From Ignavibacteriota bacterium (GTDB lineage Bacteria; Bacteroidota; Ignavibacteria; Palsa-1295), in NCBI GenBank assembly GCA_963787835.1, contig CAWBEI010000003.1, forward strand, positions 439,586-503,585: 64,000 nt of DNA, given 5' to 3'. This document shows positions 8,707 through 62,480 of the stretch, piece after piece. The notes beneath the pieces were generated by a model. The model was not told the origin of the DNA. It worked only from the letters and a program-made list of their open reading frames with translations, and searched no databases. Position 1 is the stretch's first letter; the number at the start of each line of letters is the position of its first letter. Made by a program: the position numbers and the translations under genes.

Positions 8707-9877
8707 TCGTTGAATCCTTCTTCATAAGATTATCGAGATCTGCGGAAAAGCTCAAACGGTTCTCCGGCCCGAGTGCATTATTGATCGAGAGCGAGTAATT
8801 GATGTCGATCTTATGCTCCCAATTATAACCTGCTCCGGTCGTGAACTCCCCCTGATCGAGGCCGAGCCGAAGCGAGATGTTCTTTTCGTAGGTCATCTCC
8901 AAACCGAAGCGTGGCAACGCCCGTTCATTCATCAGGTAGTCTGTGGAAAATGTAGCGACAGACTGAATGGCTGGAATCGGCTGGGCATACGCGATCCCGC
9001 CATTGACCTGCATGGGAATGATCTCAGTTCGCTGGGTACTCCAGGCGAGTTGTGTTCCCGCAATATCGGTGACCGAAACACCTAAGGAAACCTTACCAAG
9101 CGCGGGATTCAACAAAAATTCCGCGAGAGAAAACCGGAGCATCGCACCACCATCGACTCCAATGGCATTCGCCGTGCCAAAACTCCCGATCGCCTGATGA
9201 ATGACCTTGAAATTAATTCCAATGGGTACTTCGATCTGTTCTTTGTAATAGAGCCAGCCCCAGTCCAGCGTAAATTTATTATCCCGCGCGATCGATAGCA
9301 CGATGGCATCCTCATTATCGCTGAAATAATTCGGAGCGCCGTCATATATTTCCTCGACGAGTTGCGCGCGTTCATCGGTAACACTGACATTAGTAAGATC
9401 CGGCGTTTGATTGAGATCGCCGACGGAAAGCCGCACCCAGTTCAAAGCCAGCGTCATATCCTTCATTGGATAAGTAAACCCAAGCTGATAAAAGTTTGCA
9501 AGTGAGTTCCCAGGTGTTCCATATTCAGCGGAATACATAAACCCAAAGAGCTGATCCGGAATTAACGAAACGCCCGCAGGATTCCAGTGAAATGCGGACT
9601 CATCATTCGCAATGGCAGTATAAGCGCCGCCCATCCCGAGTGCGCGTGACCCGACCGGGATCCGAAGAAATTCCCCGGCATAAAGATCCTGAGCATGCGA
9701 CGAAGAAACACTCCCGACGAGCAAGGTCATTGCGAGAAGGATTTCGAAGCGAAGCGACGAAATCCGACGAAGCAATCTCTTCGGGGAAGGATATTGCTTC
9801 GTCGAACAAATCTCCCTCTGGTCGATTCGTTCTCCTCGCAATGACAATATATATATATGCCTATCGAACACGCGCAA
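8699..9877 (-). CDS. PorV/PorQ-family outer-membrane beta-barrel (T9SS shuttle-like); start uncertain
   Basis: EFLRIPVGSRALGMGGAYTAIANDESAFHWNPAG; lies directly after a C25 peptidase; N-terminus overlaps a palindromic repeat. Confidence 0.85.
   Translation of the reverse strand: MRVFDRHIYILSLRGERIDQREICSTKQYPSPKRLLRRISSLRFEILLAMTLLVGSVSSSHAQDLYAGEFLRIPVGSRALGMGGAYTAIANDESAFHWNPAGVSLIPDQLFGFMYSAEYGTPGNSLANFYQLGFTYPMKDMTLALNWVRLSVGDLNQTPDLTNVSVTDERAQLVEEIYDGAPNYFSDNEDAIVLSIARDNKFTLDWGWLYYKEQIEVPIGINFKVIHQAIGSFGTANAIGVDGGAMLRFSLAEFLLNPALGKVSLGVSVTDIAGTQLAWSTQRTEIIPMQVNGGIAYAQPIPAIQSVATFSTDYLMNERALPRFGLEMTYEKNISLRLGLDQGEFTTGAGYNWEHKIDINYSLSINNALGPENRLSFSADLDNLMKKDSTSE
9726..9845. repeat. Four-way-junction palindromic repeat, copy 1
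   Basis: GTCATTGCGAG...GACGAAGCAAT...ATTGCTTCGTC...CTCGCAATGAC, shared with 22057-22182 and 62363-62480. Confidence 0.92.
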
Positions 9878-12800
9878 ATTTTCCTTTTACCTCTTGTGTC
9901 GATGATGACGTATTGACCGTCAGTCTGTAAAAATACACTCCATTGGCGACCTCCGCACCACCGTCATCCAGACCATTCCACCATACCTCATGATAGCCGA
10001 TGCTGGTCGGCGTTCCGGTACCGCCCTGCAAAAAGCCGAAGGTTCGCGTTGGATCGGTGGATGGGTAACTCATCGTACGGATACGCCTCCCGCTAACAGT
10101 ATAAATATCGAGACTCACCGATTGTGCGTACGCAATACCGCTGATCTGATAGGCAATGAACATTTGCACCCCAGTGAACGGATTTGGGAACGAACCAAGT
10201 ACGACCACCCCGAACTGATTCGATACATGGACATCCAGTTCTTTCGCCGGAGCATTCGTTTGTCCGTTATTATCCGTCGCCTGAATAGTGATGGTATGGT
10301 TACCGCTCGAAAGCGATGGCTGCATCGTGAGATTTAATGTGGTCTGCGTTCGGCTCGAATCCAGCATGACATACTGCGATGGCTGAAGCGCGCGGTTATC
10401 GATCTTCACGATCGTTTTTCCCGGCGTAATGTCGATACCATTGGCATCCTGAATGATCGCATCGAGTTTCGGCTGTGGAGGAACTTCGCCGTTATTGATG
10501 AACACCTGCCCTTCGACCGTAATATCCACGATAGGTGGAACCTTATCCGTATTATACGCAATCGCGAACGTGCCGAGATTGGTGATCGAAGCAGTCAACT
10601 GATTTGGCGAAGGACGTGACGTGGAAAGAATGGTCCATAGTTTTGATCGGTCGTCCAGGCGATAAATAAAAAGGCTGTCGTTGCTATGGAGCTTAATAAG
10701 CGAATCGTTCAGATTCAAGGTTACGGTAAGTGTCGAAGGACCAAACCTCGAAGTAGTAAGCGCGATGGCACCAAGTGAATCGCTCACAATGCGAAGGCTT
10801 GAATAGCGCACTTTCTTGTCCGTGTACATGGGCAGGAAGTGAATATCCGGCTGGGCGGTTTGCGCTGGAGTATAAACTCGGGCTACGCGAATGACATCGG
10901 CACCGATATTCCCTTCCGCACCAGGTTGCAGACCCAGGACAACCTCACCATTGTTGAAGACCGCAGGTGTTGTGGATACTCCATCCGATGTCGTTCCCAC
11001 GGCGGAAAGATAGGCAACAGCGCCAGGCGCAAAAGCGAGAGGCAGCGTGGTATCGTTGGTTGTGATACTATCTCGTAGATTAAGTGGGCCAATGCCCGCT
11101 TCCGGAGTAATTGCAAACGCCAGTGTGGACGAATCGAGCGAGGTGATCACAAGTGGGATACTCACCAAGGTATCACTGTGTGAAGCAATTTCACTTACAG
11201 AGGTGCTTCCAAGTAACTGTGGCGCACCGGATCGCATATTCAACAGCGAGGCCATCGCCGAACTCACTGGAGATGACCCCCAATTGTACACAAATTCGTT
11301 CCATACCAGCCCGTTTTTCGTCGATGCGTATTTGCCACTAACCGAACGGTGGTACAGATCTTTATCCGCCGAAGGATCGCTGGCCGCTCCAACAATAATA
11401 TAAATTGAATCCGAGGTAATATTATCGCTGCCCGGCAATCAGAGAAACGGTGGCCACGACTTTATTTCCCGCACTTATCGTGCTGGCCGGAATGACGACG
11501 TGATACCGATCCGAGATCGGCAGCATCGTCATCGGAGGTAACGCATTCGCTGTGACCACCCCGTTTGCACTTTGCGAATAGATCGTGATATTCGCTGTCA
11601 CGCTTGTGATCGGCTGTGGGGTCTGGATTGCCGCGCTGAAATCCAGCGGCAGGCCCACCGGCAAGGGATGTGGCTCAAAATCCAACTCGGTTATTCGGGA
11701 ATTAGTAATGGTTATATCTTCTGCGGTAGCAGCAAACTGGTTCGTCGATTTATCATACACAATAGCACGGTACGTTCCGTACGGCATGGTAACGATCGGA
11801 ACATTATCGGTCAGCGTAAACGCACCACCCGTGACGGGGATATTGTCTATACTATGCACCGGTGATAGCGGGCTGAGGACATCGTTGGCAAGTTCGATAC
11901 GCGCCACGCCACTCTTGATCGTGGTTGTGCCTGTTAGCTGCACCGTCCCCGAAGGCTGAAGGACACGGCTGGAAAGCGTAAGCCCAACTCTATCCGTCGG
12001 ATAATTTGGCGATAGCAATGGATCACCCAAAAAATGGTAGCAATAGACGAGCGTCGGAGGGATAAGATCGCCAGAAAGCGCCTCGGAAAGAAAATCCATC
12101 TTGGCGTCGATGATGCGCTCGGCCATCGTTCCACCGACGGAATCATAGATGCGTGGAACAACCGCTTCTGCAAGACGGGCATCATTTTGCTCCCATCCAA
12201 AACTTGTGGTTCCCAACGCTGCGATCGAGCCGGCACTTGCAATATTTTGTAGGCTATTGAGTATCCCAGTGTTCGGACCATCGTATGTTGCGGTAAAGCA
12301 GGTCATGCTCAGAACGAGTGGATACCGTGCATTATTATTGAAGCCCGTTACCTGGGGATTTGACAGGAACGGCGGACCGCTGGTGTCATTGACGGGATCA
12401 TCCCAAATATCTGCGCCGCCATGGCCGAAATAGGCGATCAGTCCTAGCCCATTGTTGACATTATCAAATACGGTTTCTTGGGTTCCATGATAAGGTGACG
12501 CGGGAACTGTCGATTGACGCAGCACACTGACACGTTCCGGAAGCGCACCCTGCAAAATTCTACCGATGCCAGTATCGAAACTTCCACCGGCTCCAATAAA
12601 GAGCGCGCGGTCTTTCCAGTCTCCGGGAATCGCGGGATCGGATTCAAATTGTTTGAGCTTAGTGATATACGCCGCATCGCCGCTAATGTTCGAAGTTGCA
12701 AGACGGCCCAGAACCAGATCCGGCACAAGGTCATTGCTATCGAGCATGGAATACCATGCATCGGCAGCGACATCCCCTTCGATATAAGCCTGAATATAGG

Positions 12801-15123
12801 GCGCGGGAACCTGATCGTTTGGGAAATATTCTTCCGAATCGTCCGTGCCTTCGTGCGTTACCCCGACAAGCAGCACATATTTGGGAGGATCTTGCCAATT
12901 ATTATAGGCATACGTTAAAAATGATTTGATCGCATTTGCGGATGGACTCCCATAATGAAATTCATCATAGATATTTGCAACATCGATGAGCTGAGTGGTC
13001 ACATGGTTCGTGCTGGCGCGGTAACTTAGCAGATCCTGCAGCGGAACATGTGCGTTGTTATTCCCTTTCGGAAGATGGTCGCGATTTGTGATGACGATAT
13101 ACTCGCCAGAGTTCGATGGCGAGGCAAGGCCGGCAAAATTGTCCTTCTCATACTTGTAAGGCTTGAGCTTGCCGGAATCCGTGACAGCGAAAAACTCGTC
13201 GGCTGCACTGGTAATATTAACCTGAAAGATCGCCTGCGTACTACGCTCCTGCTTGGGATTAGAAACGAAGACAACATTGGATATCTTCGAAATCCCCTTC
13301 CGATAAATGGAAATATCGGTGCGATCGAAATTTTGCAGCGTAAATTGATACAGTCCTGCGGTGCTGTATTGCGGCGCATGAAAGGTGATCGTGTCCTGAT
13401 AGGCATAATACCTGCGATTATATCCGATCTCGATCCAATTGAACGCGAATCGGCAACTTTGAACCGGTGTCTGCTTTTGCTGCGCGACTGTGATCGCGAT
13501 CGGTGGAAGTCCTCCGCTGGTATCTGCCGGATTAACGCCCAACAACTGCGCGGATGGAATATAGGAGACAAGCTGCGATGCCGTGTCGGTCGACAGGAAC
13601 TTCAAGTTCTGACCGCTCCAGACGCCGTGCAGCACTGCTTGCTGATTGACCGAGATCAACGCATCTTCTTCGCTATCGACATACGGAAGGGGGTTACCTT
13701 TCTCATCGGTCGCGCCCTGCACATAATCATCGATACCATGCAGCGCGACCCGAAAAGAAACTGGCCGGTTTTGCCGCACATCCGGGTACGGCACAATGGT
13801 ACTTGCCGTGTAACTCGAAGGATATGTTCCACCCGTCGAAACGATTCCCATAAACCAGTGATCTCGCAGATCGGAACGCTGATCGATATCCGTGACATCG
13901 AGCGGGTCAGAAATGTTATCTTGCTCGAAGTGTATCTTGGTCGCGAATGAGCTATCCTTCAGATCGACATAAAAACTGTTGCGCGGATAAGGCGACCGGT
14001 TAGCCGTTCGGATTTCACCCGATTCCTCCGCCAACCGCTTTACTCCCGTCACTGGGATCGGTGAATAATGACTTCCCCACACGAGGAAATAAATATTGTT
14101 TTTTGTGTCCGGGTCGTAATAAAAATCCCCAAGCGTATCTGGCCCGTTATACCGCTCCTTGTTGCCAAAGAACTCGAAATAATCATCCGAATGAAAATGG
14201 CCATCCTGATAAATATCGGAAACATAGACGGCAACTTGCTGCCCTTTATTAATGACCCGCAAGGTTGCTGGATCGATCTGCGAAGGATCGATCCCAAAAT
14301 GTTGGAGATCGCTAAAAGTGATATGATAAATACCGCTCTGGCGGACGTACATCCGATAGACATTTCCATCGTCAGACTGAATGCCGGGAAGTTGCTGAAC
14401 ATCCCCGACCGACAGTGTTTGCATGCCTTTAGACTGGCCACGACTCGCAGCAAGACGCGATCTAAACACTCCGTTCGATACTTTGAACGGCTCATTTAAG
14501 TCTGTGACCGGTAGTGATGAAAGCCCCGACGGATCGGTAATTTGGACAATGATCTTTTTCGCCGCGCGAATAGTGGACGAACCGGATCTATCCAGAATTC
14601 CCAGTTCGAGTCGCGAAATATCAGCCGCCCGCATCGTTCCCATAAAGGTAAGCCCAGCATAGCCGATTCCGTGGTGCTCACTGGATATCGGCTTCGGTCG
14701 GTGAACCGACGCTCCCGGCTTCCCATTACTCGCAACATCCTCGATTAGTGTGCTGGTGAGGTCAAGTTTATTTGCCGTTGTGTTCACATCGTTATGCGAA
14801 AGGATCGTTACACTTGCATGGCGAGAAACCCGGAGCGGGATCGCGATCGAAGCTAAGGCATCGCCGCCCTGAACTTGTCCGGAAATTCGGCGAACGCGAA
14901 GCACCTTTTGAAAGGTATCGAACGTGGGTGAAGGGAGCGTGACTTCAATCGTTACCGTGTTCCCCGATCGTTTCAATTCCCGTACCTTAACACCTCCTGG
15001 AAGATGAGCGCGAGAGGACACCGCGAATAGCAGGATGCTAATCGCGCAAGCAAACCCGATGCATCGTTTGGGATGCAGACATCGAAGGCGATTCGAATGG
15101 CGCATGGAGCGCGGCCAGAGCAT
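9861..15123 (-). CDS. PorU-like C25 (gingipain-family) cysteine peptidase with a C-terminal sorting domain; one gene split by a +1 frameshift near 11432
   Basis: ORF 11422-15123 has IYDEFHYG, PKYVLLVG, YFGHGG (His), SMTCFT (Cys), FLGDP. ORF 9861-11438 continues it (DKVPPIVD, FPNPF, ANGVYFYRL). Removing one G at 11431-11433 fuses them into ~1753 aa. Confidence 0.85.
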
Positions 15124-15371
15124 CGAAAATAATTCGACTTTATTAATGGCACATCATCTCAGAAGACCAAACGCGGGGCAACGCTGGCAAACCTGAGTAC
15201 AGAGCGTGGCGATGGATGATGAATCACCCACACTTCTACATAATACTACACAAAAATGACCTCAGTTCAGTTCATTTTTGAGAAAACTTGCATTCAAGCG
15301 GCACAAGAATCCACTGCTCCCTGTTTCGCTACCCTGTCCACATTCAGGAATGTGGGCGCTAACCATGTTTT

Positions 15372-15459
15372 GGAGAGGTGCAGGAGTGGTTTATCTGGGT
15401 CGCCTGGAAAGCGGCTGTACGTTAATAGCGTACCGAGAGTTCGAATCTCTCCTTCTCCG
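15372..15459 (+). tRNA. tRNA-Ser (anticodon GGA)
   Basis: Acceptor GGAGAGG/CTTCTCC-G, anticodon arm GTCGC-CTGGAAA-GCGGC, long variable arm GTACG..CGTAC, T arm GAGAG-TTCGAAT-CTCTC; CCA not encoded. Confidence 0.97.
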
Positions 15460-15898
15460 CTGTAATTGAGGTGTGGACCATTTGGGGCTCTTCGAGATGA
15501 CTGAGAGCGTACGTATCGAGTCTTTATATGTCTTTTATGAAAAGTAAGCGTCACTTATAAATTATTCATAATTTTTATTTGTAACCCGAGCGACCTTGTG
15601 CGTTTTAAATAATAGGAAGGATTCTGTCAATGAGAGAGATCGGGGGGCTGCACTATGGATTCGGAAGTCGGGGAGAAGGTAGCTGGCTTTCCTATTCAAC
15701 CGACAGGTTTTCCTATTAAAGATTGTATTTTTCGGAGTGGTCGTTTCGGGCAGGAGAAATTAAGTTTTTGTAACTTCTTTTGCTGTTTAATTCGTTGTTT
15801 TGGTACCAACTATGACCATGACACATTCTAACCCTTTCGTTTTTTTCGCAGCGGGCGGCAGGAATCGTGTGTCCTCTATGATACAGATATTATTCCTG

Positions 15899-20326: not shown

Positions 20327-20419
20327 AGGAATCGTCCGAAATGAGATGATGTTGCGTTTTCTGTGCTTTATCGGTCATGCAAGTCAATGCGACGTCGGAG
20401 ATATTAATGTTGAAAAAAA

Positions 20420-20889
20420 TGGATGCTACTCGCCAAGACAAAATAACAGCGATCCGTACGTTGCCCTCGGAATTATCAGAAGCTGTCAACGGACTGAGCA
20501 AGGAACAACTGAATACGCCCTATCGCGAAGGCGGCTGGAGCCCTCGACAAATTGTGCATCATATTGCGGACTCTCACCTGAATGCATTCGTCCGAATGAA
20601 ACTCATTCTGACCGAAGAGCAGCCTCTGTTCAAGACGTACGATCAGGATGCCTGGGCTGCAATGCATGATTACACCTATGATATCGCGCCATCCCTCGCG
20701 ATCGTGTCTGGCATTCAGGAGCGTATGGCTAATCTCTTGGAAGATGCAAGCGAGGATGATCTCGCAAAAAAAGCCAATCATCCCGATAATGGGGTGATGA
20801 CGTTACAAAATTTGCTCGATCTGTACGCAACACATGGCAGGAACCATGTTGAGCAGATCACGGGATTACGCAAGAAAATGGGTTGGTAG
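20420..20889 (+). CDS. YfiT/BstA-family (DinB superfamily) bacillithiol-type S-transferase
   Basis: QLNTPYREGGWSPRQIVHHIADSH and HGRNH metal ligands; start uncertain (20377-20420). Confidence 0.88.
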
Positions 20890-20902
20890 AATTCCCACTG
20901 CG

Positions 20903-22033: not shown

Positions 22034-22056
22034 CGTCTGAATGGAAGTATTATTTT

Positions 22057-22182
22057 GTCATTGCGAGGAGAGCATTCGAAGCAGAGCGGTGAATGCTCGA
22101 CGAAGCAATCTCTATCCTACGGGATAGAGATTGCTTCGTCGAACGAATCTCCCTTCGGTCGATTCGTTCTCCTCGCAATGAC
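22057..22182. repeat. Four-way-junction palindromic repeat, copy 2
   Basis: GTCATTGCGAGGA outer stem with three internal hairpins; intergenic between the two permease genes. Confidence 0.92.
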
Positions 22183-22210
22183 ATATTCTCACAGTTCATT
22201 TGAATCATTG

Positions 22211-47536: not shown

Positions 47537-47559
47537 GAAAAATTCATGCGAGGAGAGCA

Positions 47560-47754: not shown

Positions 47755-47795
47755 GCTAAATACTCCTTTTTGAAAATTGGGATGGCGAAAACCGC

Positions 47796-48543: not shown

Positions 48544-48569
48544 AAGAGGCGGGGGAAACCCCGCCTCTT
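48544..48569 (-). terminator. Hairpin terminator after rpoC
   Basis: AAGAGGCGGGG-GAAA-CCCCGCCTCTT; short U tail. Confidence 0.75.
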
Positions 48570-48614
48570 ATACAAGTTAGCTGTAAGTCAATCAATAATT
48601 ACGCACAGGGAGCG

Positions 48615-51600: not shown

Positions 51601-52904
51601 AGCATGATCGGATGCCCATCGATAATGGATTCCAGGATGTCCCACACTTCGGTCGTTTTTCGTTCCACAACCTTCTTCGCGCTCTTGACGGTCTTCGTCA
51701 ATCCGCGCTCGATAAGTTTGCGTATGATGAACGGTTTGAAGAGTTCGACCGCCATCTCTTTGGGCAAGCCGCACTCGTGCAATTTCAGTTCGGGTCCGAC
51801 AACGATCACCGAACGGCCAGAATAATCGACACGCTTTCCGAGCAAGTTCTGACGGAAGCGGCCTTGCTTACCCTTCAGCGTATCCGAAAGGGATTTGAGC
51901 GCGCGGCTGGTGTCCGAACGCACGGCAGAAACGCGGCGGGAATTATCTAAAAGTGAATCAACGGCTTCCTGAAGCATGCGCTTCTCATTACGCAAAATTA
52001 CTTCCGGCGCTTTGATATCCATCAGGCGCTTCAAGCGGTTGTTGCGGATGATCACGCGGCGATAGAGATCGTTAAGATCGCTCGTCGCAAAACGTCCGCC
52101 CTCCAGCGGTACGAGCGGACGAAGCTCCGGCGGAATGACGGGGATGACATCCATGACCATCCACCACGGCTTGTTCTCGGGTTTGCCTTCCTCTTCGCGG
52201 AATGCTTCGATGGAACGCAGGCGCTTGAGCGCGTCCTGACGCTTCAACTGGGATGTTTCCTCGCGCGCGGCACGGCGAAGATCTAGCGAAAGCGCTTCGA
52301 TGTCGATACGGCGAAGCAATTCTTTAACGGCTGCACCACCGATAAGGGCGACGAACTTATTCGGGTCGTCATTTGGGAGGTCCTGATTGCCGGCCGGGAG
52401 CGAATCGAGCACGCGGTAGTATTCTTCTTCCGTAAGAAGATGGCGTGACGGAAGCCCGGTTGGTCCCGGATTCACGACCGCATACGACTCATAATAAACG
52501 ATCTTTTCGAGATCCTTGGTCGGAAGCCCGAGCAAATGGCCGATCTTGTTCGGCAGCGAACGGAAAAACCAAATGTGTACCACTGGCACACCAAGCTGGA
52601 TGTGTCCGAAGCGCTCGCGGCGAACGGAACGTGTCGTTACCTCGACGCCGCACCGGTCGCAAATAATGCCTTTATAGCGGATACGTTTGTATTTTCCGCA
52701 ATAACATTCCCAGTCGCGGGTTGGGCCAAAGATCTTCTCGCAAAAGAGTCCATCTTTTTCCGGGCGATACGAGCGGTAATTGATCGTCTCCGGTTTGGTC
52801 ACTTCTCCGTGACTCCGGTTCAGGATCGATTCCGGGCTCGAAAGCCCGACCGAGATCGATGCGAAATTACGAAGTGGTACTTCCTGCGGCAACATGTAAG
52901 CCAT
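48615..52904 (-). CDS. rpoC: RNA polymerase beta' subunit
   Basis: [51 protein letters not shown]. Confidence 0.99.
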
Positions 52905-52991
52905 AATATCTCCTATTATATTTCTCTAAAACTTTTTTCTATGGTGCATTTGTCCATTCGATCCCAAAGGACCGAATGGACAGAAATGACA

Positions 52992-55900
52992 TTAATCGAT
53001 ACGGATCTCTATTCCGAGACCTTGCAGCTCGCGCACGAGCACGCTGAACGATTCCGGTACGCTTGGCTCCGGCATATTCTCGCCCTTGACGATCGCCTCA
53101 TAGACCTTCGAGCGGCCCGGCACATCGTCCGACTTCACGGTAAGAATTTCCTGGAGGGTGTGCGCAGCGCCATACGCTTCGAGCGCCCACACTTCCATCT
53201 CACCAAAACGCTGACCACCGAACTGCGCTTTACCACCCAACGGCTGCTGCGTGATAAGCGAATACGGTCCGATCGAACGCGCGTGGATCTTATCATCGAC
53301 CAAGTGCGAGAGCTTCATCATATAGATCTCGCCAACGGTAACGGGCTGGCTGAATTTCTCTCCGGAACGGCCATCATAAAGCTCGGTTCGAGCATCGACA
53401 TTCAGATCCGCTTCCGTGAGATACGACTTCACATCGTTCCAGTGCGCACCATCGAAGATCGGGGTCTCGAAACGCACGCCAAGCTTATGAGCTGCGAACC
53501 CGAGGGCGGTCTCATACAACTGCCCGATATTCATACGGCTTGGTACGCCAAGCGGGTTGAGAACGATATCGACCGGAGTTCCATCGGCAAGGAATGGCAT
53601 ATCCTGCTGAGGCACGATCTTCGCCACGACTCCCTTGTTACCATGGCGGCCTGCCATTTTATCGCCAACGGAAAGCTTGCGCTTTTTTGCGACATAAACT
53701 TTCGCCATTTGCATGATACCCGGCTGAAGTTCATCGCCCAAGCCCACTTTGGAGCGCTCGCGGCGCACATCGGCGTCGATGTCCTCGCGTTTGCCCCAGT
53801 ATCCTTCATAGATCCGGCGAACCTGATTCATCTTTCGGCGGTCTTCGAGCCAATCGGCGCCGACGTAAAGCTTCTCAAGCTCGTCCAATCGAGAGTAGAA
53901 GGTGTCGTGCTTGAACGAAACGCCCGACCGGATAACGGTTGCACCATCCAGATCGCGAACGCCAACGGACACTTCGCCATCGAGAACCTTCAGCAGTTTC
54001 TCGGCAAGTTTGCGATTGGTGTCATCGAACTGATCCTTGTACATCTTGTCGATGGCGTCGATACGGCGTTTTTCTTCACGCTTTTCTTCGCCCTCTTTTT
54101 TGATGCCCTTGCGGGAAAAGAGCTTGGTCTCGACAACGACACCCTTAATTCCGGGCGGCGCTTTCATAGAAGCATCCTTGACATCGCCGGCCTTATCGCC
54201 GAAGATCGCGCGCAGAAGTTTTTCTTCCGGTGTAGGATCGGTCTCGCCCTTCGGGGTGATCTTACCGATGATAATATCGCCTTCTTTTACTTCCGCGCCG
54301 GTACGAATGACGCCCGTCTCATCGAGATCTTTCGTCGCTTCTTCGGAGACGTTCGGGATTTCGCGCGTTAGTTCTTCCTCGCCACGCTTGGTGTCGCGGA
54401 CGTGCAGTTCGAACTCCTCGATATGGATAGAAGTATAAATATCTTCCGAAACGACGCGCTCGGAAATGACGATAGCATCCTCAAAGTTATATCCGCGCCA
54501 CGGCATGAATGCCACCAGCACGTTGCGGCCAAGGGCCAATTCGCCGAGTTCCGTGGAAGAAGAATCCGCGAGAACGGTTCCCTTCTTCACGCGCTGGCCT
54601 TCGCGCACGCTCGGGCGCTGCGAGATGCAGGTATCCTGATTCGTTCGGAAGAACTTGGTCAGTTTGTATTCGCGATGACGGCGATCGTCAAAGCTGGAAA
54701 GGATCTCGTCGCGGGAGCCTTCATCATCATAGACCATCACGATGCGATCGGCGTCCACCGACTCTACAAGACCATCGCGTTCCGCGAGAAGCAGCGCACG
54801 GCTATCGCGCGCAATCTTGCCTTCAAAACCTGTGGCGACGAGGGGCGCTTCCGGACGTAACAGCGGGACGGCTTGGCGTTGCATGTTCGATCCCATAAGA
54901 GCGCGGTTAGCATCGTCATGTTCCAGGAATGGAACGAGCGCCGCAGCCGCGCTGACGATCTGCGAGGGCGCAACATCCATATATTGCACTTTATCCGGCG
55001 CGATCACTATAAAATCGCCGAACTGACGCGCACTGATGCGGTCATCGACAAAGTGACCATCCTTATCGAGCGCCTGATTCGCCTGCGCGATGACCTTATC
55101 CTCTTCATCGTCGGCGCTCAGATACGTAATATCGGTGGTAACTTTACCATCCTTCACGATGCGGTACGGCGTTTCCAAGAACCCGAACTCATTGATCCGA
55201 GCATAGACCGCAAGCGAAGAGATAAGACCAATATTCGGACCTTCCGGCGTTTCGATCGGGCAGAGGCGGCCGTAATGTGTGTAGTGAACGTCACGAACTT
55301 CGAAGCCGGCGCGTTCGCGGGTAAGACCGCCAGGTCCCAGCGCGGACATACGGCGCTTGTGTGTCATTTCCGCCAAAGGATTGGTCTGATCCATGAACTG
55401 CGAAAGCTGATTTGTTCCGAAGAATGTGTTGACCACGCTCGTCACCGTTCTAGCATTGACGAGATCGGCAGGCCCGACCTTTTCATCATGGATCGACATA
55501 CGCTCACGGATTGTACGCGCCATACGCGCAAGGCCGATATTGAACTGCTGTGCAAGCTGCTCGCCAACGGTGCGAACGCGGCGGTTACCAAGATGATCGA
55601 TATCATCCACCGAAGCTTTGCCAAGCTGCAAACGAATGATATATTTCAGGATCTCGATAATATCTTCCTTCGTGAGCGTGGTGATCTCGTTCGGAATTCC
55701 CGGGGTTCCCTCGTGGAGGGTTTGGTTGAGGCGAATACGCCCGACCAAGCCGAGATCGTATCGCTTCTGATTGAAAAAGAGCTTTTCAAGCAATCCGCGT
55801 GCAGCTTCCATATCCGGAGCTTCGGAGGAACGCATGACGCGATAGATCGCTTCGAACGCATCGTCCGTCGAACGGGAAGTATCTTTCTGGATCGTATTGA

Positions 55901-56825
55901 GAATAACGGCGCCGCCGGTATCTTCGAGATCCATAAAGCGTACCTTACGAATACCGCCGGTACGAAGGCGCTCGATGTGCTCTTCGAGGAATGTCGAATC
56001 TTTCGAAAGGAAAATTTCGCCCGTGTTCATGTCGATCACGTCGGCGGCGATGAGCTTGCCAACATAAGCGGTAAGATCGGCAGTCTTGACATCGACATCC
56101 TGAATAAGACCGAAAAGATGGAGAATATCCTCATCGCTGGACCATCCGAGTGCGCGGAGCAGCATCGTGACCGGGAATTTCTTCTTACGGTCGATGTAGG
56201 CCCAAAGCACATTATTAATATCGGTGGTGAACTCGACCCAGCTTCCGCGGAACGGGATGACACGACCGGAAAAGATCGTCGTACCGTTTGGATGCAAGCT
56301 TTCCGCAAAGAATACACCCGGCGAGCGGTGCAACTGCGAAACAACAACGCGCTCGGCGCCATTGATAATGAAGGTACCGCGCTCGGTCATCATGGGAAGG
56401 TTACCGAGAAACACTTCCTGCTCGACGGTCTCTACAAAATCCTCGCTCTTTTCTTCGGGATTTTTTGAGGCAAGGCGAAGTCGAGTCTTCAGCGGAACGC
56501 TGAACGTCAGCCCGCGCTCCTGGCACTCCTGCACGGTATAGCGTGGCTTTTCAAGGCGATAATCGAGATATTCGAGCACGAACGTCTCGCGGCTGTCGAT
56601 GATCGGGAAATTTAACTGAAACACGGATTCGAGTCCGGTCACGCGGCGATCGGCGATCGGCACACCATCCTGAAGGAATTCCTGAAACGACTGAAGCTGC
56701 ACGTCCAACAGATCGGGCAGATCATAATCGCGTGGAATTTTGGAGAACGAGATACGCCCCGTGTCTATTACGTGAGCGTCCCCGAGTAGTGGAATTTTAT
56801 TGGTTGCTTTCGCTGAACGTGCCAT
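52992..56825 (-). CDS. rpoB: RNA polymerase beta subunit
   Basis: SQLHRSPG, DIDHLGNRR, SQFMDQTN, GDKMAGRHGNKG, GQRFGEMEVWALEAYG. Confidence 0.99.
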   Translation of the reverse strand: MARSAKATNKIPLLGDAHVIDTGRISFSKIPRDYDLPDLLDVQLQSFQEFLQDGVPIADRRVTGLESVFQLNFPIIDSRETFVLEYLDYRLEKPRYTVQECQERGLTFSVPLKTRLRLASKNPEEKSEDFVETVEQEVFLGNLPMMTERGTFIINGAERVVVSQLHRSPGVFFAESLHPNGTTIFSGRVIPFRGSWVEFTTDINNVLWAYIDRKKKFPVTMLLRALGWSSDEDILHLFGLIQDVDVKTADLTAYVGKLIAADVIDMNTGEIFLSKDSTFLEEHIERLRTGGIRKVRFMDLEDTGGAVILNTIQKDTSRSTDDAFEAIYRVMRSSEAPDMEAARGLLEKLFFNQKRYDLGLVGRIRLNQTLHEGTPGIPNEITTLTKEDIIEILKYIIRLQLGKASVDDIDHLGNRRVRTVGEQLAQQFNIGLARMARTIRERMSIHDEKVGPADLVNARTVTSVVNTFFGTNQLSQFMDQTNPLAEMTHKRRMSALGPGGLTRERAGFEVRDVHYTHYGRLCPIETPEGPNIGLISSLAVYARINEFGFLETPYRIVKDGKVTTDITYLSADDEEDKVIAQANQALDKDGHFVDDRISARQFGDFIVIAPDKVQYMDVAPSQIVSAAAALVPFLEHDDANRALMGSNMQRQAVPLLRPEAPLVATGFEGKIARDSRALLLAERDGLVESVDADRIVMVYDDEGSRDEILSSFDDRRHREYKLTKFFRTNQDTCISQRPSVREGQRVKKGTVLADSSSTELGELALGRNVLVAFMPWRGYNFEDAIVISERVVSEDIYTSIHIEEFELHVRDTKRGEEELTREIPNVSEEATKDLDETGVIRTGAEVKEGDIIIGKITPKGETDPTPEEKLLRAIFGDKAGDVKDASMKAPPGIKGVVVETKLFSRKGIKKEGEEKREEKRRIDAIDKMYKDQFDDTNRKLAEKLLKVLDGEVSVGVRDLDGATVIRSGVSFKHDTFYSRLDELEKLYVGADWLEDRRKMNQVRRIYEGYWGKREDIDADVRRERSKVGLGDELQPGIMQMAKVYVAKKRKLSVGDKMAGRHGNKGVVAKIVPQQDMPFLADGTPVDIVLNPLGVPSRMNIGQLYETALGFAAHKLGVRFETPIFDGAHWNDVKSYLTEADLNVDARTELYDGRSGEKFSQPVTVGEIYMMKLSHLVDDKIHARSIGPYSLITQQPLGGKAQFGGQRFGEMEVWALEAYGAAHTLQEILTVKSDDVPGRSKVYEAIVKGENMPEPSVPESFSVLVRELQGLGIEIRID

Positions 56826-57398
56826 AATTATTATCGAGAATCCTTATAAATCTTTACTAAATCTGATGCGAGATCAGGAGGTTTTCTTACGTAAGAGGCG
56901 ACTATTCCTCTCGCGGCTTGTCAGAACAAGCCACTTGGATGTGGCCGCGCGGGTTACGATTGCGGCGGAGCAAAAAACGGGGGGGTACCTCGGCTCAGTG
57001 GCCAGAGCGCGAATGACAGACGATTCGCAGGAGAGGACAAAATGACGACATTAGGAACAGCGGCGCTGCTCCCGAAGTATGAGTATAAGATCAATGTGGT
57101 CGAATGTTTAATTTGCCGCTGAATTTCTACTGGCCTACCATCCCCACCCAAAGGGTGTTGAATCAGGTGTCTAAATTCAGACAACCAAACGTTTTTCGAT
57201 GAAAAATTGCTTTTCCATCGCAGTTTTAGCCATTTCCTGGCCGTTATGCGAACGATCGCTCATTCGCTTTTCCTCTGCTGCACTTTAGGGTTGGAGTATG
57301 CTTTAATTGTCTCCCCCTTTTTTCGCGCGTGACGGAAACCAAAGATGAATTCGAATAATTCCGGGGAAATTATTCGTATGATAATTAATTATTATTAG

Positions 57399-57434
57399 AA
57401 AAAAGGCTTCTTCAAGAAAAGCTTGAGAAAGGCC
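57399..57434 (-). terminator. Probable intrinsic terminator after the coiled-coil gene
   Basis: Minus strand GGCCTTTCTCAAG-CTTTT-CTTGAAGAAGCC followed by a T run; imperfect stem. Confidence 0.55.
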
Positions 57435-57455
57435 CAGGAGGAATAAATCTATTTT

Positions 57456-57743
57456 TTAAATACCCGCACGGGAGAGACGGTCGTCGTGATTATCCACCTT
57501 CCGGTCGATAGACTGGAACAATCGCACCAGCATTCCATGATCCTCGGCCTGGATGCGTTGCGTTTCGATGATCTTCGCATCGTTTTCAGCTAAAAGAAGC
57601 TGGATATCCTTAATGTCCCGCATATCGGCCTGAAGCAGCTTCATATCGGTTCGAAGCTCATCCAGCCATTTGTAGAACATAGCCATATACTCATCGAAAT
57701 TCATCTCAAGCCTTCCTAACCGCGCTTCTATATCGTCTGCCAT
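57456..57743 (-). CDS. Small coiled-coil hypothetical protein
   Basis: 95 aa with heptad pattern (LRTDMKLLQADMRDIKDIQ); ATG start; followed by a terminator. Confidence 0.7.
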   Translation of the reverse strand: MADDIEARLGRLEMNFDEYMAMFYKWLDELRTDMKLLQADMRDIKDIQLLLAENDAKIIETQRIQAEDHGMLVRLFQSIDRKVDNHDDRLSRAGI

Positions 57744-57847
57744 GCTTTTCTAATGATTAATCTCCGGCTTTGGTTCATGTAGTAGAATGCGGTTTTGGCA
57801 CGGCATAGAACATTAAGAAGATAAATGTTCTGAATGGTGCTATTCCT

Positions 57848-59230
57848 TCACAAACTTCGCCCCGAATGCCCATCACTTATGAAATACACTCCCAATGGAA
57901 GCGAAGAAATATCTAGCATATTCCCGTTTCTGGGAACCGCATAACTGCGACCAAGCGGATCGGCAATAGAAATCGCTCCGGCTGGCGATGCGATGTTAAT
58001 GAGATTTATTGCAGGATTAGGATAAAGAGTGAAATTAGCTTGAGATGGAACATTCGGTGTAACGCTGGAAGGAACAGGCTCTAAATAGGCAAGCACATCG
58101 GAGTTGTAAGTAAAACTATTGGTATCTAAAGTAACTGAAGCAATGATGCCTCCTGAACCGGTCACACCGATCGCGTTTATCCGAAAGTAGCTATGTCCAT
58201 CATCCAAAGGCACCGTATCCAGTTCCCATGTCGTTCCCCGATCCCTGCTAATGAGTATTTCGCCCAGAGAGTCAAAACCTGCCACAACAATGGTCTGCTG
58301 ATCGAGTGCCGTGAGGATGTCTTCGTCCATCCCATGATGCGTGCGGGGGACAGGCAATTCTTCCCAATTGAGCCCAAGGTCTGTGGAGCGGACGACGGTT
58401 GGGATTTCATCGGAGTATTGATTGGTACCTGCGGAATCATACCGGTATGCCAAAAAGGCGAGCGTATCGCCTGGCCCAAAGTAAAAATATTCGGGGACTA
58501 GATCTCCGTTTAAGAAGGGGCCATTCAGTGTACAAAGCGAGGTGTCCGATGTTGCCCAATCATTATATGTGGTTACAATAGTGTCCGGGTCGTTGGATTT
58601 AGCTCCCCCAAAAATTTCTCGGAACATTCCGTTCCCGTAGGAATGACCATATTCTGAACTACGTGTACAATGTAACCCGGAATCGTCCGTGGAAAAATAT
58701 AGCTCGTCACCTACATCGAAAAGATATCCTTCCGCAGGAGTGGAAAAATCTACGCCTGAAAAACCAATTGCTTGCGTATCGTACCCGAAAATCAAGGGTT
58801 TTAGAACTACAGTATCTGTTCGCCATGTATTCCAATTATCGGACGTTCTCACGGTAATGCCTTTTTCGCCAACGGCCATTGCATGCACGGAGTCGATCTG
58901 CTCCATGGCATACAGCACCAAATTTCCAGAGGAATTCCATGTGTAATATTCCTGCGGAAGTCCTGCCGGAGGGATAGAATCCCATGTGAGGCCACCATCG
59001 CTGCTATGAAAAATAACGTTCGAATTTACCTGATCTATGCTTTTGCGGATCGGCCATGAATAACATAAAGCGGAACAATTTTCACCGCTACACGATATCG
59101 AAATAAACCCATATCGTGTTGTATCGATCTGGTTAGCATGAACGATGTGCCACCGGTATTGCGCGTGCGCATAAGGGGCGAATGCCAGGAAAGCGAACAG
59201 AGCCAGTAGAATTGATTTTCGTAAACTCAT
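57848..59230 (-). CDS. Secreted BNR/beta-propeller protein with T9SS-type CTD; probable frameshift in the last codons
   Basis: Signal peptide; SSDGGLTW, STDLGLNW, SRDRGTTW repeats; LYPNPA...LPLGVYFI; the alternative frame gives AKFVKE* ending at 57840. Confidence 0.83.
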   Translation of the reverse strand: MSLRKSILLALFAFLAFAPYAHAQYRWHIVHANQIDTTRYGFISISCSGENCSALCYSWPIRKSIDQVNSNVIFHSSDGGLTWDSIPPAGLPQEYYTWNSSGNLVLYAMEQIDSVHAMAVGEKGITVRTSDNWNTWRTDTVVLKPLIFGYDTQAIGFSGVDFSTPAEGYLFDVGDELYFSTDDSGLHCTRSSEYGHSYGNGMFREIFGGAKSNDPDTIVTTYNDWATSDTSLCTLNGPFLNGDLVPEYFYFGPGDTLAFLAYRYDSAGTNQYSDEIPTVVRSTDLGLNWEELPVPRTHHGMDEDILTALDQQTIVVAGFDSLGEILISRDRGTTWELDTVPLDDGHSYFRINAIGVTGSGGIIASVTLDTNSFTYNSDVLAYLEPVPSSVTPNVPSQANFTLYPNPAINLINIASPAGAISIADPLGRSYAVPRNGNMLDISSLPLGVYFISDGHSGRSL

Positions 59231-59381
59231 CTCAATAATGTCGTGACTTAATTAATCGACCCAGACGAAGACGGTCTTCGCATTTTCTTGAAGCGGAAGA
59301 TTCAGAAAAAATCGTGCTTTAAGAAAATACACAAAACGGGGTTGAGTTCATACCCCTCGTTCATAGCTCTCGTTGATCCGC

Positions 59382-59849
59382 TTAATAATTCACCTTGATC
59401 GTCTTTGCTGTCGCATTAAGTGTGACGCTATAGTTCGTTAGTGGCGATGCTGCAGGACCGTTGACGACCTGACCGAATAAATTGAACCTCGATCCGTGGC
59501 ATCCACAATAGATCGACCCACCGCTCGGGGAATCGACCTGACATCCCTGGTGCGTGCAGAGCATCGAAAGCGCCGTGTAAGTTGTAGCATTTTGCCGAAT
59601 GACAAGTATTGGTGTTCCGTCGGGCGTTACACTCGAATCAACCATGAACTGGCCGTTCGAGGTAAGCGAAGCGATGTTTATCGTGGTTGTTCCATGCGAA
59701 ATGGAAGGCCCCGTTAAGGAAGAACATGCTTCAATTATCTGGCCGAGCGCTCCTGCAAGCGTTACGCCCGTTAAAACCATACCTGTTCTTTTGAGGAATT
59801 CGCGGCGACCAACCGCAGATTCCAGAGAAAAAATTTGGGAGGATTCCAT
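59382..59849 (-). CDS. Small Tat-exported Rieske [2Fe-2S] protein
   Basis: Tat motif GRREFLK, CTHQGC, CGCHGSRF, GPA..PL; likely start ATG 59849. Confidence 0.92.
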   Translation of the reverse strand: MESSQIFSLESAVGRREFLKRTGMVLTGVTLAGALGQIIEACSSLTGPSISHGTTTINIASLTSNGQFMVDSSVTPDGTPILVIRQNATTYTALSMLCTHQGCQVDSPSGGSIYCGCHGSRFNLFGQVVNGPAASPLTNYSVTLNATAKTIKVNY

Positions 59850-60051
59850 TATATTTTGTACTAATGCTACTGTGACCGTTGCAAACATTTGAATTAAGAC
59901 ACATTGTGCCTTTGAAATGGAACTCCATACCGGTGCTTACGTCACACAAATAAAATATCCATCACATTTCTGAGTTCAGACACCCATCGCGAGCGATGCT
60001 GTTTTTACCCGGTATGACGAACTATTATCAATCCTCGTGAATTAAACCATT

Positions 60052-60294
60052 ATGATTCAGGAATACATCCGAGCAGCAATGCAACACGCCCACTATAAAT
60101 TACTTGATGACGACCATTCCTATTTTGGCGAGATCCCGGAGTGTCAGGGAGTGTGGGCTAATGCCGAAACGCTCGAAGCTTGCCGGCAGGAGCTTGAGGA
60201 GGTGCTTGAGGATTGGCTGCTCATTCGCTTGCGAAAAGATATGCCTGTTCCAGAAATAAATGGTATCTCACTCGAAGTTCACTCGTTCGCCTGA
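60052..60294 (+). CDS. hicB: HicB-family antitoxin (short form)
   Basis: YFGEIPECQGVWANAETLEACRQELEEVLEDW. Confidence 0.88.
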   Translation: MIQEYIRAAMQHAHYKLLDDDHSYFGEIPECQGVWANAETLEACRQELEEVLEDWLLIRLRKDMPVPEINGISLEVHSFA

Positions 60295-60512
60295 TGCCAA
60301 GAATTGGCCCGATCAGCAGAGACGATCTGATTCGTAACTTGCGTAAGCTCGGATTTCGCGGCCCGGAAGCAGGCGCAAAGCATCAAGCAATGGCACGCGG
60401 CAGTTTGCTCGTCAGAATTCCAAATCCGCACGGATCGGATATCGGAATAGGATTGCTCAAAGAAGTGCTTCGTCAAGCTGGTATCTCCAAAAACGAGTGG
60501 GAAAAAATGTAA
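60294..60512 (+). CDS. hicA: HicA-family toxin
   Basis: TGATG coupling; LIRNLRKLGF..GAKH..IPNPH..LLKEVLRQAGI. Confidence 0.88.
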   Translation: MPRIGPISRDDLIRNLRKLGFRGPEAGAKHQAMARGSLLVRIPNPHGSDIGIGLLKEVLRQAGISKNEWEKM

Positions 60513-60592
60513 TTGCCCGATAGTATTACACCGAGACACACACCTCTCTTGTCGTATTTTTGCATTTAAGAATAAGCAATACTATTTCAAAA

Positions 60593-62359
60593 ATGGGATT
60601 TCAACAACGGTCGATCATGGCGGGCGAGCTCCGGAGCGAGCATATTGGTCAGCGGGTGGTATTAAAAGGATGGGTCGATGGCCACCGTGATTTCGGTGGC
60701 ATGCTCTTTATTGATGTTCGTGACCGCTCGGGTAAATCTCAATGTGTAGTTTCGAAGGAAACGCAGGAGTCCGTGTATGGAACGCTCGGTTCTATTCGAA
60801 GTGAAGACGTCGTCTGCATAGCGGGATCCGTTCGCGAGCGGAGCAATAAGAATCCTAAAAATCCTACGGGCGATGTCGAAGTTGAGATCGATTCCATCGA
60901 GATTCTCAACCGATCCGAAGTACCGCCGTTCGAAGTTAAGGAAGACACGAACGCCAACGAAGATCTACGCCTGAAATATCGCTATCTCGATCTTCGGCGC
61001 CCGAGCTTACAAGCAAATTTAGCCACACGGCACAAGATCGTAAAAACCATACGCGATTATTTCGATGAGCGTGGATTTTACGAGATCGAAACCCCCATCC
61101 TGATGAAAGCCACGCCGGAAGGCGCCCGCGATTTCCTTGTGCCCTCGCGCTTACATCCGGGATCGTTCTATGCGCTTCCGCAATCGCCGCAGCTTTACAA
61201 GCAGGTGCTGATGATCTCTGGTTTCGATCGTTATTTCCAGATCGCGCGCTGCTTCCGCGATGAGGATCTTCGTGCCGACCGCCAGCCGGAGTTCACGCAG
61301 CTCGACGTGGAGATGAGCTTCCCGAACGAGAGTATGATCTATGAGGTGATGGAAAACTGCCTTCACCGAGTCTGGGAACAATTAGGGCTGACGCTTCCGC
61401 CGTTCCTGCAACTAAGTTACCATGAGGCGATGAGCCGGTTCGGCAGTGACAAACCGGACCTGCGGTACGGCCTTGAAATTCAGACGCTGACCGAGATGGT
61501 GCGCGGAAAATCTGAATTCAAAGTTTTTAACGACGTGCTTCAAAAGAAACATGGCGTGATCGGAGCCGTCGTCGCACCCGGAGGAGCGGTATGGTCACGA
61601 AAGCAGCTTGACACGCTTACCGATCTTGCGAAAGTCTATGGCGCAGGAGGATTGGTTTGGATAAAAGTTACAGCTGAAGGCTTCGATTCGAGCGCGAAGA
61701 AATTCCTGTCCGATAATCTCCTTGCCAACATTTGCACGGTCTGCGGCGCGCGCGAGGGCGATCTGATCCTTGTTGCCACGCATGAAAAATGGGAACGGGC
61801 CTATACTATCCTCGGAGCTTTACGGTCGGAGCTTGCAAGACGGCTCGGCCTGCTCGAAGGCAAGCAGTTCGAATTCGCTCCGGCGTGGATCACCAATTTC
61901 CCGATGTTCGCTGAAAATGAAGATGGAACGTTCACCTTCCAGCATCATCCGTTCACCGCTCCCGACCCCCACGATTGGAACCGACGGCAAGAAGGCCTCG
62001 GTGAGGTGCGGGCGCGCGTCTATGATATTGTGATGAATGGCTACGAATTAGGCTCTGGCTCCATTCGTATTCACGACCGCACGATGCAGGAGCAGGTCTT
62101 CGATATGCTCGGCCACACCCGGGAGCAGCAGCAGGAGAAATTCGGATTTATTCTGGAAGCTTTCCAATATGGCGCGCCGCCGCATGGCGGGATGGCGCTC
62201 GGAATCGACCGCATTGTCATGCTTTGCGTCGGGACCGATAACATTCGCGACGTTATCGCCTTCCCCAAGACCACCAGAATGCAGAATTTGATGGATGGGT
62301 CACCTTCGTTCATCGAAGAAAAACAGTTGCGGGAATTGCATATCGCTGTTAAAGCCTAA
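60593..62359 (+). CDS. aspS: Aspartate--tRNA ligase
   Basis: RDFGG..FIDVRD, LKYRYLDLRR, TPEGARD, LPQSPQ, FRDEDLRADRQPEFTQ, GAPPHGG; likely start ATG 60593. Confidence 0.98.
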   Translation: MGFQQRSIMAGELRSEHIGQRVVLKGWVDGHRDFGGMLFIDVRDRSGKSQCVVSKETQESVYGTLGSIRSEDVVCIAGSVRERSNKNPKNPTGDVEVEIDSIEILNRSEVPPFEVKEDTNANEDLRLKYRYLDLRRPSLQANLATRHKIVKTIRDYFDERGFYEIETPILMKATPEGARDFLVPSRLHPGSFYALPQSPQLYKQVLMISGFDRYFQIARCFRDEDLRADRQPEFTQLDVEMSFPNESMIYEVMENCLHRVWEQLGLTLPPFLQLSYHEAMSRFGSDKPDLRYGLEIQTLTEMVRGKSEFKVFNDVLQKKHGVIGAVVAPGGAVWSRKQLDTLTDLAKVYGAGGLVWIKVTAEGFDSSAKKFLSDNLLANICTVCGAREGDLILVATHEKWERAYTILGALRSELARRLGLLEGKQFEFAPAWITNFPMFAENEDGTFTFQHHPFTAPDPHDWNRRQEGLGEVRARVYDIVMNGYELGSGSIRIHDRTMQEQVFDMLGHTREQQQEKFGFILEAFQYGAPPHGGMALGIDRIVMLCVGTDNIRDVIAFPKTTRMQNLMDGSPSFIEEKQLRELHIAVKA

Positions 62360-62362
62360 AAG

Positions 62363-62480
62363 GTCATTGCGAGGAATCCCGGAGGGATGACGAAGCAATC
62401 CGTTGAGATTCTGCTTAATCTTGGGCGATTGCTTCGTCGAGTTTGACTCTCTTCGGTCGTCAAACTCTCCTCGCAATGAC
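62363..62480. repeat. Four-way-junction palindromic repeat, copy 3
   Basis: GTCATTGCGAGGA...TCCTCGCAATGAC with a GACGAAGCAATC/GATTGCTTCGTC arm; starts 3 nt after the aspS stop. Confidence 0.92.

What the first reader, a model, noticed from the sequence alone, without database searches (positions are those of the whole stretch)
9726..62480. Dispersed ~120-bp four-way-junction repeat family with covarying arms
Seen: three copies (9726-9845, 22057-22182, 62363-62480) share an outer stem GTCATTGCGAG/CTCGCAATGAC and a central arm GACGAAGCAAT/ATTGCTTCGTC. The other two arms differ in sequence but keep pairing. Arm 1: GGATTTCG/CGAAATCC, GAGCATTC/GAATGCTC, ATCCC/GGGAT. Arm 3: GAACAAATC/GATTCGTTC, GAACGAATC/GATTCGTTC, GAGTTTGAC/GTCAAACTC, all around a similar pyrimidine-rich ..GGTC loop. 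All copies have an ATAT-rich right flank and the same + orientation, although two lie in minus-strand operons and one follows a plus-strand gene. Inference: structure is under selection and orientation is independent of transcription, which suggests a non-autonomous ssDNA/cruciform-recognised element reminiscent of Rickettsia palindromic elements. No mobiliser is in this window.
Basis: partly seen in the sequence, partly recalled or inferred. Interest (0 to 1): 0.7.

Follow-up and report, generated by a model that had tools for sequence, protein, structure and literature searches.

The report
Paired hairpin repeats of Ssn-type nuclease
The three repeats are real copies of a genome-wide family, each made of two inverted DNA hairpins, and one copy elsewhere in the genome encloses a tiny GIY-YIG nuclease gene that likely cuts and spreads them, so this is a long-armed variant of a known hairpin-and-nuclease system rather than a new four-way-junction element.

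Summary
The copies are real; G000 holds 64 such dimers. Each is a head-to-head pair of GTC-tagged hairpins on opposite strands. Variation covaries within a half (Fisher p about 1e-6), not across halves: 0 of 22 and 0 of 16 deviations are compensated. So the four-way junction, although the computed minimum-energy fold, looks like a by-product. Orientation is random (23:21) and unlinked to transcription or GC skew. One dimer (G000:C2:1244744-1245174) encloses a 98-aa GIY-YIG gene, 51% identical to a Neisseria SsnA homologue; that site is empty in 14 of 14 congeners. Of its 80 best homologues, 72 have the same hairpin within 300 bp, against 5 of 143 control segments. This is an Ssn/SRM-type (CGTC-REP-like) system, in a long-armed sub-family that the published SRM pattern misses (0 of 154). 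Extras: copies flip in place or are replaced by sister families at the same sites. Cleavage and mobilisation are inferred, not shown. This scan reported the same kind on other genomes before.

The parts
9726..9777 (+). Copy 1, left half: GTC tag + ATTGC..GCAAT basal stem + G-A internal loops + 8-bp arm + GC-GAA-GC apical loop (A-type)
9778..9791. Copy 1 spacer (14 nt by the parse)
9792..9845 (-). Copy 1, right half on the minus strand (B-type GA-CC..GG-GA loop). The element starts 16 nt past the stop of the minus-strand gene 9861-11438 (weak FlgD_ig/Y_Y_Y hits)
22057..22110 (+). Copy 2, left half (A-type, GAGCATTC arm)
22111..22128 (.). Copy 2 spacer (18 nt, the commonest length)
22129..22182 (-). 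Copy 2, right half (B-type, GAACGAATC arm). Lies between two ABC-2 permease genes; congener G005 has the same two halves at this site but inverted
62363..62400 (+). Copy 3, left half (short type, 19-nt inner part), 4 nt past the stop of the aspartyl-tRNA synthetase gene 60560-62359
62401..62426 (.). Copy 3 spacer (26 nt)
62427..62480 (-). Copy 3, right half (B-type, GAGTTTGAC arm)

Best explanation
Each repeat is a head-to-head dimer of two GTC-tagged hairpin units on opposite strands, and these units are likely the single-stranded-DNA recognition sites of a small Ssn-type GIY-YIG nuclease whose gene sits inside one such dimer at G000:C2:1244744-1245174. Shown: dimer anatomy, within-half covariation, strand asymmetry, the nested gene, its empty site in congeners, and the hairpin-nuclease association across phyla. 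Inferred: when a strand is transiently single (replication, transcription, uptake), the half folds into the ATTGC/GCAAT stem with tandem G-A pairs and a C-GNA-G-type loop; the nuclease binds it and cuts a few bases 5' of the tag, as Neisseria SsnA does (PMC11893778); host repair of the nick then copies, flips or swaps the units. The gene-less dimers would be the non-autonomous offspring, as REPINs are for RAYT, and the length of the arm is tolerated because SsnA tolerates loop extensions.
For: Within-half covariation: 13 of 16 halves with a changed 3' GA also change the 5' GA, against 20 of 110 others (p=1e-6); 8 of 16 become fully Watson-Crick within the half; 0 of 16 are matched by the partner half; 0 of 22 deviations in the outer/central motifs are compensated across halves; cross-half tests p=1.0 over 62 dimers. 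Mismatches in the arms are G-T 28 vs A-C 3 on the tagged strand. A C-(R N1-2 A)-G apical loop is on the tagged strand in 109 of 126 halves and on the opposite strand in 1. Lone halves occur in G000, and same-strand arrays and trimers in relatives G021 and G033. Nested gene P0001: Pfam GIY-YIG E 1e-15; 46 of 91 identical to an NTS-flanked N. gonorrhoeae protein. Five congeners carry a close homologue inside the same dimer (G005, G011, G004, G009; G010 frameshifted), at four other gene neighbourhoods. The nuoC-nuoD site is empty in 14 of 14 congeners. 72 of 80 best homologues from many phyla have the half within 300 bp and 41 have it head-in on both sides, against 5 of 143 distal segments. On a quick tree, nuclease clades track hairpin type (9 changes vs shuffled mean 22.4; the NTS clade with the Neisseria protein has support 96). 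0 of 10 Y1/RAYT loci have these tags. SsnA cuts only ssDNA, upstream of the hairpin, and tolerates loop extensions (PMC11893778, parts 2-4 read).
Against: No activity of P0001 was tested, and PMC11893778 shows cleavage but only hypothesises mobility. The nearest-neighbour fold of a whole dimer is the four-way junction, which would bury the tag. Spacer position 1 shows weak cross-half pairing (48 of 64 vs 41.1 shuffled, p=0.013; position 2 p=0.054; positions 3-6 none). G014 has 46 dimers but no homologue at E<=1e-15 (91% complete); G006 and G007 are likewise without one (80-81% complete); G011 and G010 have the gene (frameshifted in G010) but only 4 long halves each (the pattern misses short halves). 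No target-site duplication. Copies are related by descent, so the p-values overstate. The tree is the quick, unfinished one on 96 columns, and the 80 loci were chosen by similarity to P0001.
Confidence: 0.8

Rival explanations
1. The four-way junction (cruciform or cloverleaf) of the whole dimer is the functional unit.
For: It is the minimum-energy fold on both strands for all three copies. Nearly all halves are in dimers: 64 dimers, few credible singles. Spacer position 1 pairs slightly more than chance.
Against: 0 of 22 and 0 of 16 cross-half compensations, while within-half pairs covary. Spacer positions 3-6 do not pair. The spacer ranges from 6 to 321 nt. Relatives hold tandem same-strand halves and trimers.
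Confidence: 0.07
2. The dimers are kept mainly for an RNA-level job (mRNA stabilising or terminating hairpin just past a stop codon), and the nuclease is only their historical source.
For: Of 45 co-directional sites most start 4-42 nt past a stop. Slots are re-occupied by sister families in relatives: 13 of 33 syntenic sites hold some GTC-tagged element in G000. Di Nocera et al. proposed this for REPs (PMC3733652, passages read).
Against: The two halves fold best on opposite strands and orientation is unrelated to transcription (7:3 vs 9:9, p=0.43). 9 of 64 lie between divergent genes. SsnA does not bind RNA (PMC11893778).
Confidence: 0.2
3. Arm covariation comes from hairpin-templated correction (template switching at quasi-palindromes; recalled mechanism, not from a call) rather than selection; the repeats are mostly inert relics that mutate, flip and collapse in place.
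For: G-A mismatches are converted to exact complements in 8 of 16 cases. Almost every copy is unique (75 stems in 105 halves). Three of 6 shared sites are inverted, and G014 has a collapsed copy at window site 2.
Against: The GA/GA loops stay mismatched in 90 of 126 halves and the tag and basal stem are near-invariant. Copy number varies about 30-fold within the genus, and 20 of 33 syntenic sites lack any of the three families in G000, which needs gains or losses.
Confidence: 0.25
4. A Y1/RAYT tyrosine transposase of the genome mobilises the repeats.
For: The genome has 10 Y1_Tnp matches; REPINs have the same dimer anatomy.
Against: 0 of 10 Y1 loci carry the tag within 400 bp, whereas the GIY-YIG gene is enclosed by it here and in many phyla.
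Confidence: 0.04

Closest known systems
Ssn nucleases with NTS / Ssn-related motifs (Chenal et al. 2025, PMC11893778; parts 1-5 of 11, selected passages and Supplementary Data 5 read)
   Same: Single-domain ~95-aa GIY-YIG gene flanked by inverted GTC-tagged hairpins; many dispersed intergenic copies; P0001 is 51% identical over 91 aa to an NTS-flanked Neisseria homologue.
   Different: The ATTGC..GCAAT half with G-A internal loops and an 8-bp arm is not matched by the published SRM pattern (0 of 154), whereas the genome's NTS-like family is. P0001 falls outside the NTS clade. Halves are 38-72 nt rather than 20-50 nt.
CGTC-tagged REPs, families CGTC-1 to -4 (Di Nocera et al. 2013, PMC3733652; passages, section 6 and Additional file 3 rows read; Figure 2 with the consensus sequences not available as text)
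   Same: YGTC tag, A-T first pairs, short unpaired tail, predominantly head-to-head heterodimers, intergenic near 3' ends, reported in Bacteroidetes and Chlorobi.
   Different: Described stems are 8-9 bp with 4-5-nt loops; here a 5-bp basal stem, internal loops and a long arm. The CGTC-2 and -3 peptides in Additional file 3 imply other stems. That paper found no dedicated transposase; here a cognate nuclease gene is nested in a dimer.
Rickettsia palindromic elements RPE-4/-6/-7 (PMC3767692, passages read)
   Same: Shared ATGAC end, about 100-140 nt, and different families occupying the same site in different species.
   Different: That RPE-7 has ATTGC-type ends is my recollection and was not tested. 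Our copies are intergenic rather than in-frame.
REPIN/RAYT systems (as described in PMC3733652 and PMC11893778)
   Same: Inverted REP dimers dispersed as non-autonomous copies, plus one gene flanked by the repeats.
   Different: The partner is a GIY-YIG hydrolase rather than a HUH tyrosine transposase; GTC tag rather than GTAG; no RAYT linkage here.

Membership tests
Ssn family (cd10448) | Small single-domain GIY-YIG protein | tested here: met
   98 aa, PF01541 only, E 1e-15
Ssn family (cd10448) | Homology to Neisseria SsnA at E<1e-10 over >75% of length | tested here: met
   Tested against an unannotated, NTS-flanked N. gonorrhoeae homologue, not the N. meningitidis protein itself: tblastn E 5e-19, 91 of 94 aa aligned, 51% identity. 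The paper's stricter 60% identity criterion is not met.
Ssn family (cd10448) | rpsblast assignment to cd10448 | not testable with these tools
   No CDD library; NCBIfam gave only a sub-threshold TIGR01453 hit
Ssn family (cd10448) | Gene flanked by inverted GTC-tagged hairpins | tested here: met
Ssn family (cd10448) | Site-specific ssDNA cleavage 5' of the hairpin | not testable with these tools
   Needs biochemistry. Residues equivalent to SsnA Y6, Y17 and E64 are present (Y9, Y20, E67 in the alignment).
SRM as defined by the published degenerate pattern | Match to the SRM search string | tested here: not met
   0 of 154 half-matches; the same script finds the genome's NTS-like copies
CGTC-tagged REP superfamily | CGTC/TGTC tag at one end | tested here: met
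   The base before GTC is T or C in 110 of 128 ends
CGTC-tagged REP superfamily | Mostly head-to-head dimers, intergenic | tested here: met
   64 dimers; 63 of 64 outside predicted ORFs by a crude ORF caller
CGTC-1 to CGTC-4 families | 8-9-bp stem with 4-5-nt loop | tested here: not met
   5-bp basal stem, internal loops, inner part mostly 19 or 35 nt
Rickettsia RPE-7 | Sequence match to the RPE-7 consensus | not testable with these tools
   No RPE sequence was retrieved
REPIN/RAYT | Cognate RAYT gene flanked by the repeat | tested here: not met
   0 of 10 Y1 loci
Classical MITE | Target-site duplication | tested here: not met
   1-4-nt direct repeats at or below shuffled expectation
Known structured RNA | Rfam match | tested here: not met
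   0 matches at gathering threshold in the window

The most novel reading that the evidence does not exclude
Ssn-type GIY-YIG nucleases are the mobilisers of their own REPIN-like populations: nicking at a folded half drives copying, in-place inversion and homing-like replacement of one hairpin family by a sister family at an occupied site. Three nuclease/hairpin pairs (ATTGC, ATYCTG, NTS) would then compete for the same intergenic slots in this genus, with arms and spacers growing in fixed 8-nt steps.
Probability: 0.3. Interest if true: 0.65.

Novelty: new variant of a known kind. Interest (0 to 1): 0.3.

Why it matters
It assigns a very widespread hairpin sub-family, missed by the published SRM pattern, to its own clade of Ssn-like nucleases: a candidate new ssDNA-cutting specificity whose long variable arm marks where the site tolerates change. 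The genus offers a natural test of the open question whether Ssn enzymes spread their repeats, since it has gene-bearing copies at different loci, empty sites, flipped copies and family swaps. As a discovery it is modest: the system class is published, and this scan has met it many times.

Tried and rejected
Rfam: no match. blastn of copy 2 against plasmids: no match. PDB sequence search: only a weak UPF0213 hit, E 0.006. NCBIfam: nothing above cut-off. Literature search for the literal motifs gave no relevant paper among 25 listed of 483; searches for Ssn follow-ups listed only PMC11893778 as relevant; these searches do not cover subscription journals. RPE sequences were not found in the passages read. 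Sequencing runs: no RNA holder listed; this is no evidence either way. Earlier-findings look-up by sequence was blank. Orientation vs local GC skew: no link (10:11 vs 11:12); the genome is in 7 contigs, so this is a proxy for the replichore. No Infernal model or R-scape-type test was built: halves were parsed by anchors, and covariation was counted directly. The DNA-energy comparison (tagged strand more stable in 124 of 126) largely reflects the shared consensus, and I give it little weight. Rows dropped: 70 raw dimers were reduced to 64 by removing duplicate left anchors, and one left half was re-parsed by hand; 2 halves with inner part under 12 nt were left out of junction tests; 12 of 45 congener loci lacked two-sided synteny, and only the first 15 of 49, 52 and 46 dimers of G005, G009 and G014 were fetched; frameshifted L023 was left out of the tree; window site 1 in G005 was not scored for inversion.
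Full report
Observation. The three copies are present as described and fold far better than shuffles (z -6.2 to -12.8). The window is G000:C3:439586-503585. An anchor search found 61 complete copies at up to 1 mismatch. A half-based search found 154 half-matches (2-6 in three shuffled genomes), which resolve to 64 unique head-to-head dimers. Rfam has no match. The copies are intergenic: copy 1 starts 16 nt past a stop, copy 2 lies between two ABC-2 permease genes, and copy 3 is 4 nt past the aspartyl-tRNA synthetase stop.

The unit is the half. The two folds make opposite predictions, and the data separate them. Of 126 halves, 16 change the 3' GA; 13 of these also change the 5' GA of the same half (20 of 110 otherwise; p=1e-6), 8 become fully Watson-Crick within the half, and none is matched by the partner half. 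None of 22 deviations in the outer and central motifs is compensated by the partner. Cross-half association tests give p=1.0 on 62 dimers. The only cross-half signal is weak pairing at spacer position 1 (48 of 64 vs 41.1, p=0.013). Arm stems are 689 of 735 Watson-Crick with 75 distinct stems in 105 halves, and their wobble mismatches are G-T 28 to A-C 3 on the tagged strand. A C-(R N1-2 A)-G apical loop is on the tagged strand in 109 of 126 halves and on the other strand in 1. That tandem G-A pairs and GNA loops are especially stable in ssDNA is recalled knowledge. The halves thus fold on opposite strands, which fits DNA rather than one transcript. Against this, the computed minimum-energy fold of a whole dimer is the four-way junction, and copies are not independent, so p-values overstate.

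Orientation and flanks. Among 44 dimers with one B-type loop, 23 face as in the window and 21 the other way, with no link to local GC skew or gene direction. ATAT lies next to 8 of 128 ends, and there is no target-site duplication.

The cognate gene. A Pfam search of the genome gave 7 GIY-YIG matches, 5 of them small. One, P0001 (98 aa), lies inside the spacer of a complete dimer between nuoC-like and nuoD-like genes at G000:C2:1244744-1245174. Three others are flanked by two sister hairpin families (NTS-like, and an ATYCTG type), and one lies between duplicated tRNA-like sequences. The nuoC-nuoD junction lacks the element in 14 of 14 congeners. Of 14 congeners, 7 have a match to P0001 at E<=1e-15, and in 5 the best match sits in the same dimer, at four other neighbourhoods. 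Among the 80 best of 566 homologous loci from the genome collection, 72 have the half within 300 bp and 41 have it head-in on both sides, against 5 of 143 distal segments; hosts span Cyanobacteriota, Chloroflexota, Pseudomonadota, Planctomycetota, Bacteroidota and others. Two of the 80 encode proteins identical to congener loci, and their titles suggest that the host genus is Kapaibacterium-like Bacteroidota (inference). A quick tree groups nucleases by hairpin type. None of 10 Y1/RAYT loci carries the tag.

Dynamics in relatives. Long halves occur in 14 of 14 congeners and 20 of 24 family members, from 1 to 90 per genome. At the three window sites in five congeners (15 comparisons), an ATTGC element is present in 3 (one collapsed), a sister GTC-tagged family in 4, and neither in 8. 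Of 45 congener dimers, 33 had two-sided synteny with G000: 20 sites had none of the three families, 5 had ATTGC, 5 ATYCTG and 3 NTS. For scale, G000 has 179 tag clusters among about 2,830 ORF junctions; this background is too lenient, because many junctions are too short to hold an insert. At 6 shared sites scored, 3 show both halves matching crosswise (ranks 1 and 2, 3 and 22, 4 and 2 of 128), which indicates inversion in place; 1 is in the same orientation and 2 are unclear. Gene presence does not predict copy number well: G014 has 46 dimers and no homologue found.

Mechanism. Shown here: anatomy, covariation, association, empty sites, flips. From PMC11893778: Neisseria SsnA binds its hairpin only as ssDNA on the tagged strand, cuts a few bases upstream, ignores RNA and dsDNA, and tolerates extensions at the loop; mobility is proposed there but not shown. 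Inferred: P0001 does the same on these halves, and repair of the nick yields new copies, inversions and swaps. The whole-dimer fold might mask the tag and protect short dimers; that is speculation.

Comparison and verdict. It works like Ssn/SRM and fits the CGTC-REP superfamily (PMC3733652: tag, head-to-head heterodimers). P0001 meets the looser homology criterion when tested against a Neisseria homologue. The hairpin does not match the published SRM pattern or the CGTC-1 to -4 stem geometry; Figure 2 of PMC3733652 could not be seen and may bear on this. Site-sharing by different families was reported for Rickettsia RPE-4/6/7 (PMC3767692). Earlier notes of this scan reached the same class on other genomes (150 findings hold the search words); my reading was noted before that look-up. 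Verdict: real, a new variant of a known kind, interest 0.3.

Noticed in passing
G000, all 64 dimers; also G005, G009, G014: Lengths fall on a ladder: spacers of 10, 18, 26 and 34 nt (47 of 63 gene-less dimers; 32 at 18, 12 at 26), and inner half lengths of 19 and 35 nt (92 of 128) with a few at 50-53. The 8-nt and 16-nt steps are unexplained.
   Followed up: partly
G000:C2:1473150, C2:1221612, C2:1256678 (L001, L004, L005): Three more small GIY-YIG genes, flanked by an NTS-like family (78 tags genome-wide) and an ATYCTG family (83 tags); the latter shares apical-loop modules with the ATTGC family.
   Followed up: partly
G000:C5:67020-67214 (L002): A divergent 91-aa GIY-YIG gene between two near-identical tRNA-like sequences (CAT anticodon region); its reading frame runs into the second copy. 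No GTC-tagged hairpins.
   Followed up: no
e.g. G000:C2:399365, C2:525134, C3:346179, C2:97842, C2:486037: A 16-17-nt extra hairpin is inserted in the apical loop of some halves; two recurrent types, also seen in congeners G009 and G014.
   Followed up: no
L010-type relatives: G010:C4:7588-7809 (L023) and G011:C39 (L020): The gene-bearing dimer lies upstream of a biotin-carboxylase-like gene in both; the G010 copy is frameshifted near its 5' end.
   Followed up: no
window sites 1 and 3 in G002, G005, G006, G009, G014 (L132-L136, L143-L147): Slots without a GTC-tagged element often hold other repeats: heptamer-like inverted arrays or unrelated palindromes.
   Followed up: no
window 8699-9877 (-): A mechanical ORF runs open through copy 1 from a TTG at 9877; congeners suggest the real start is near 9696, so the element is probably intergenic.
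   Followed up: partly
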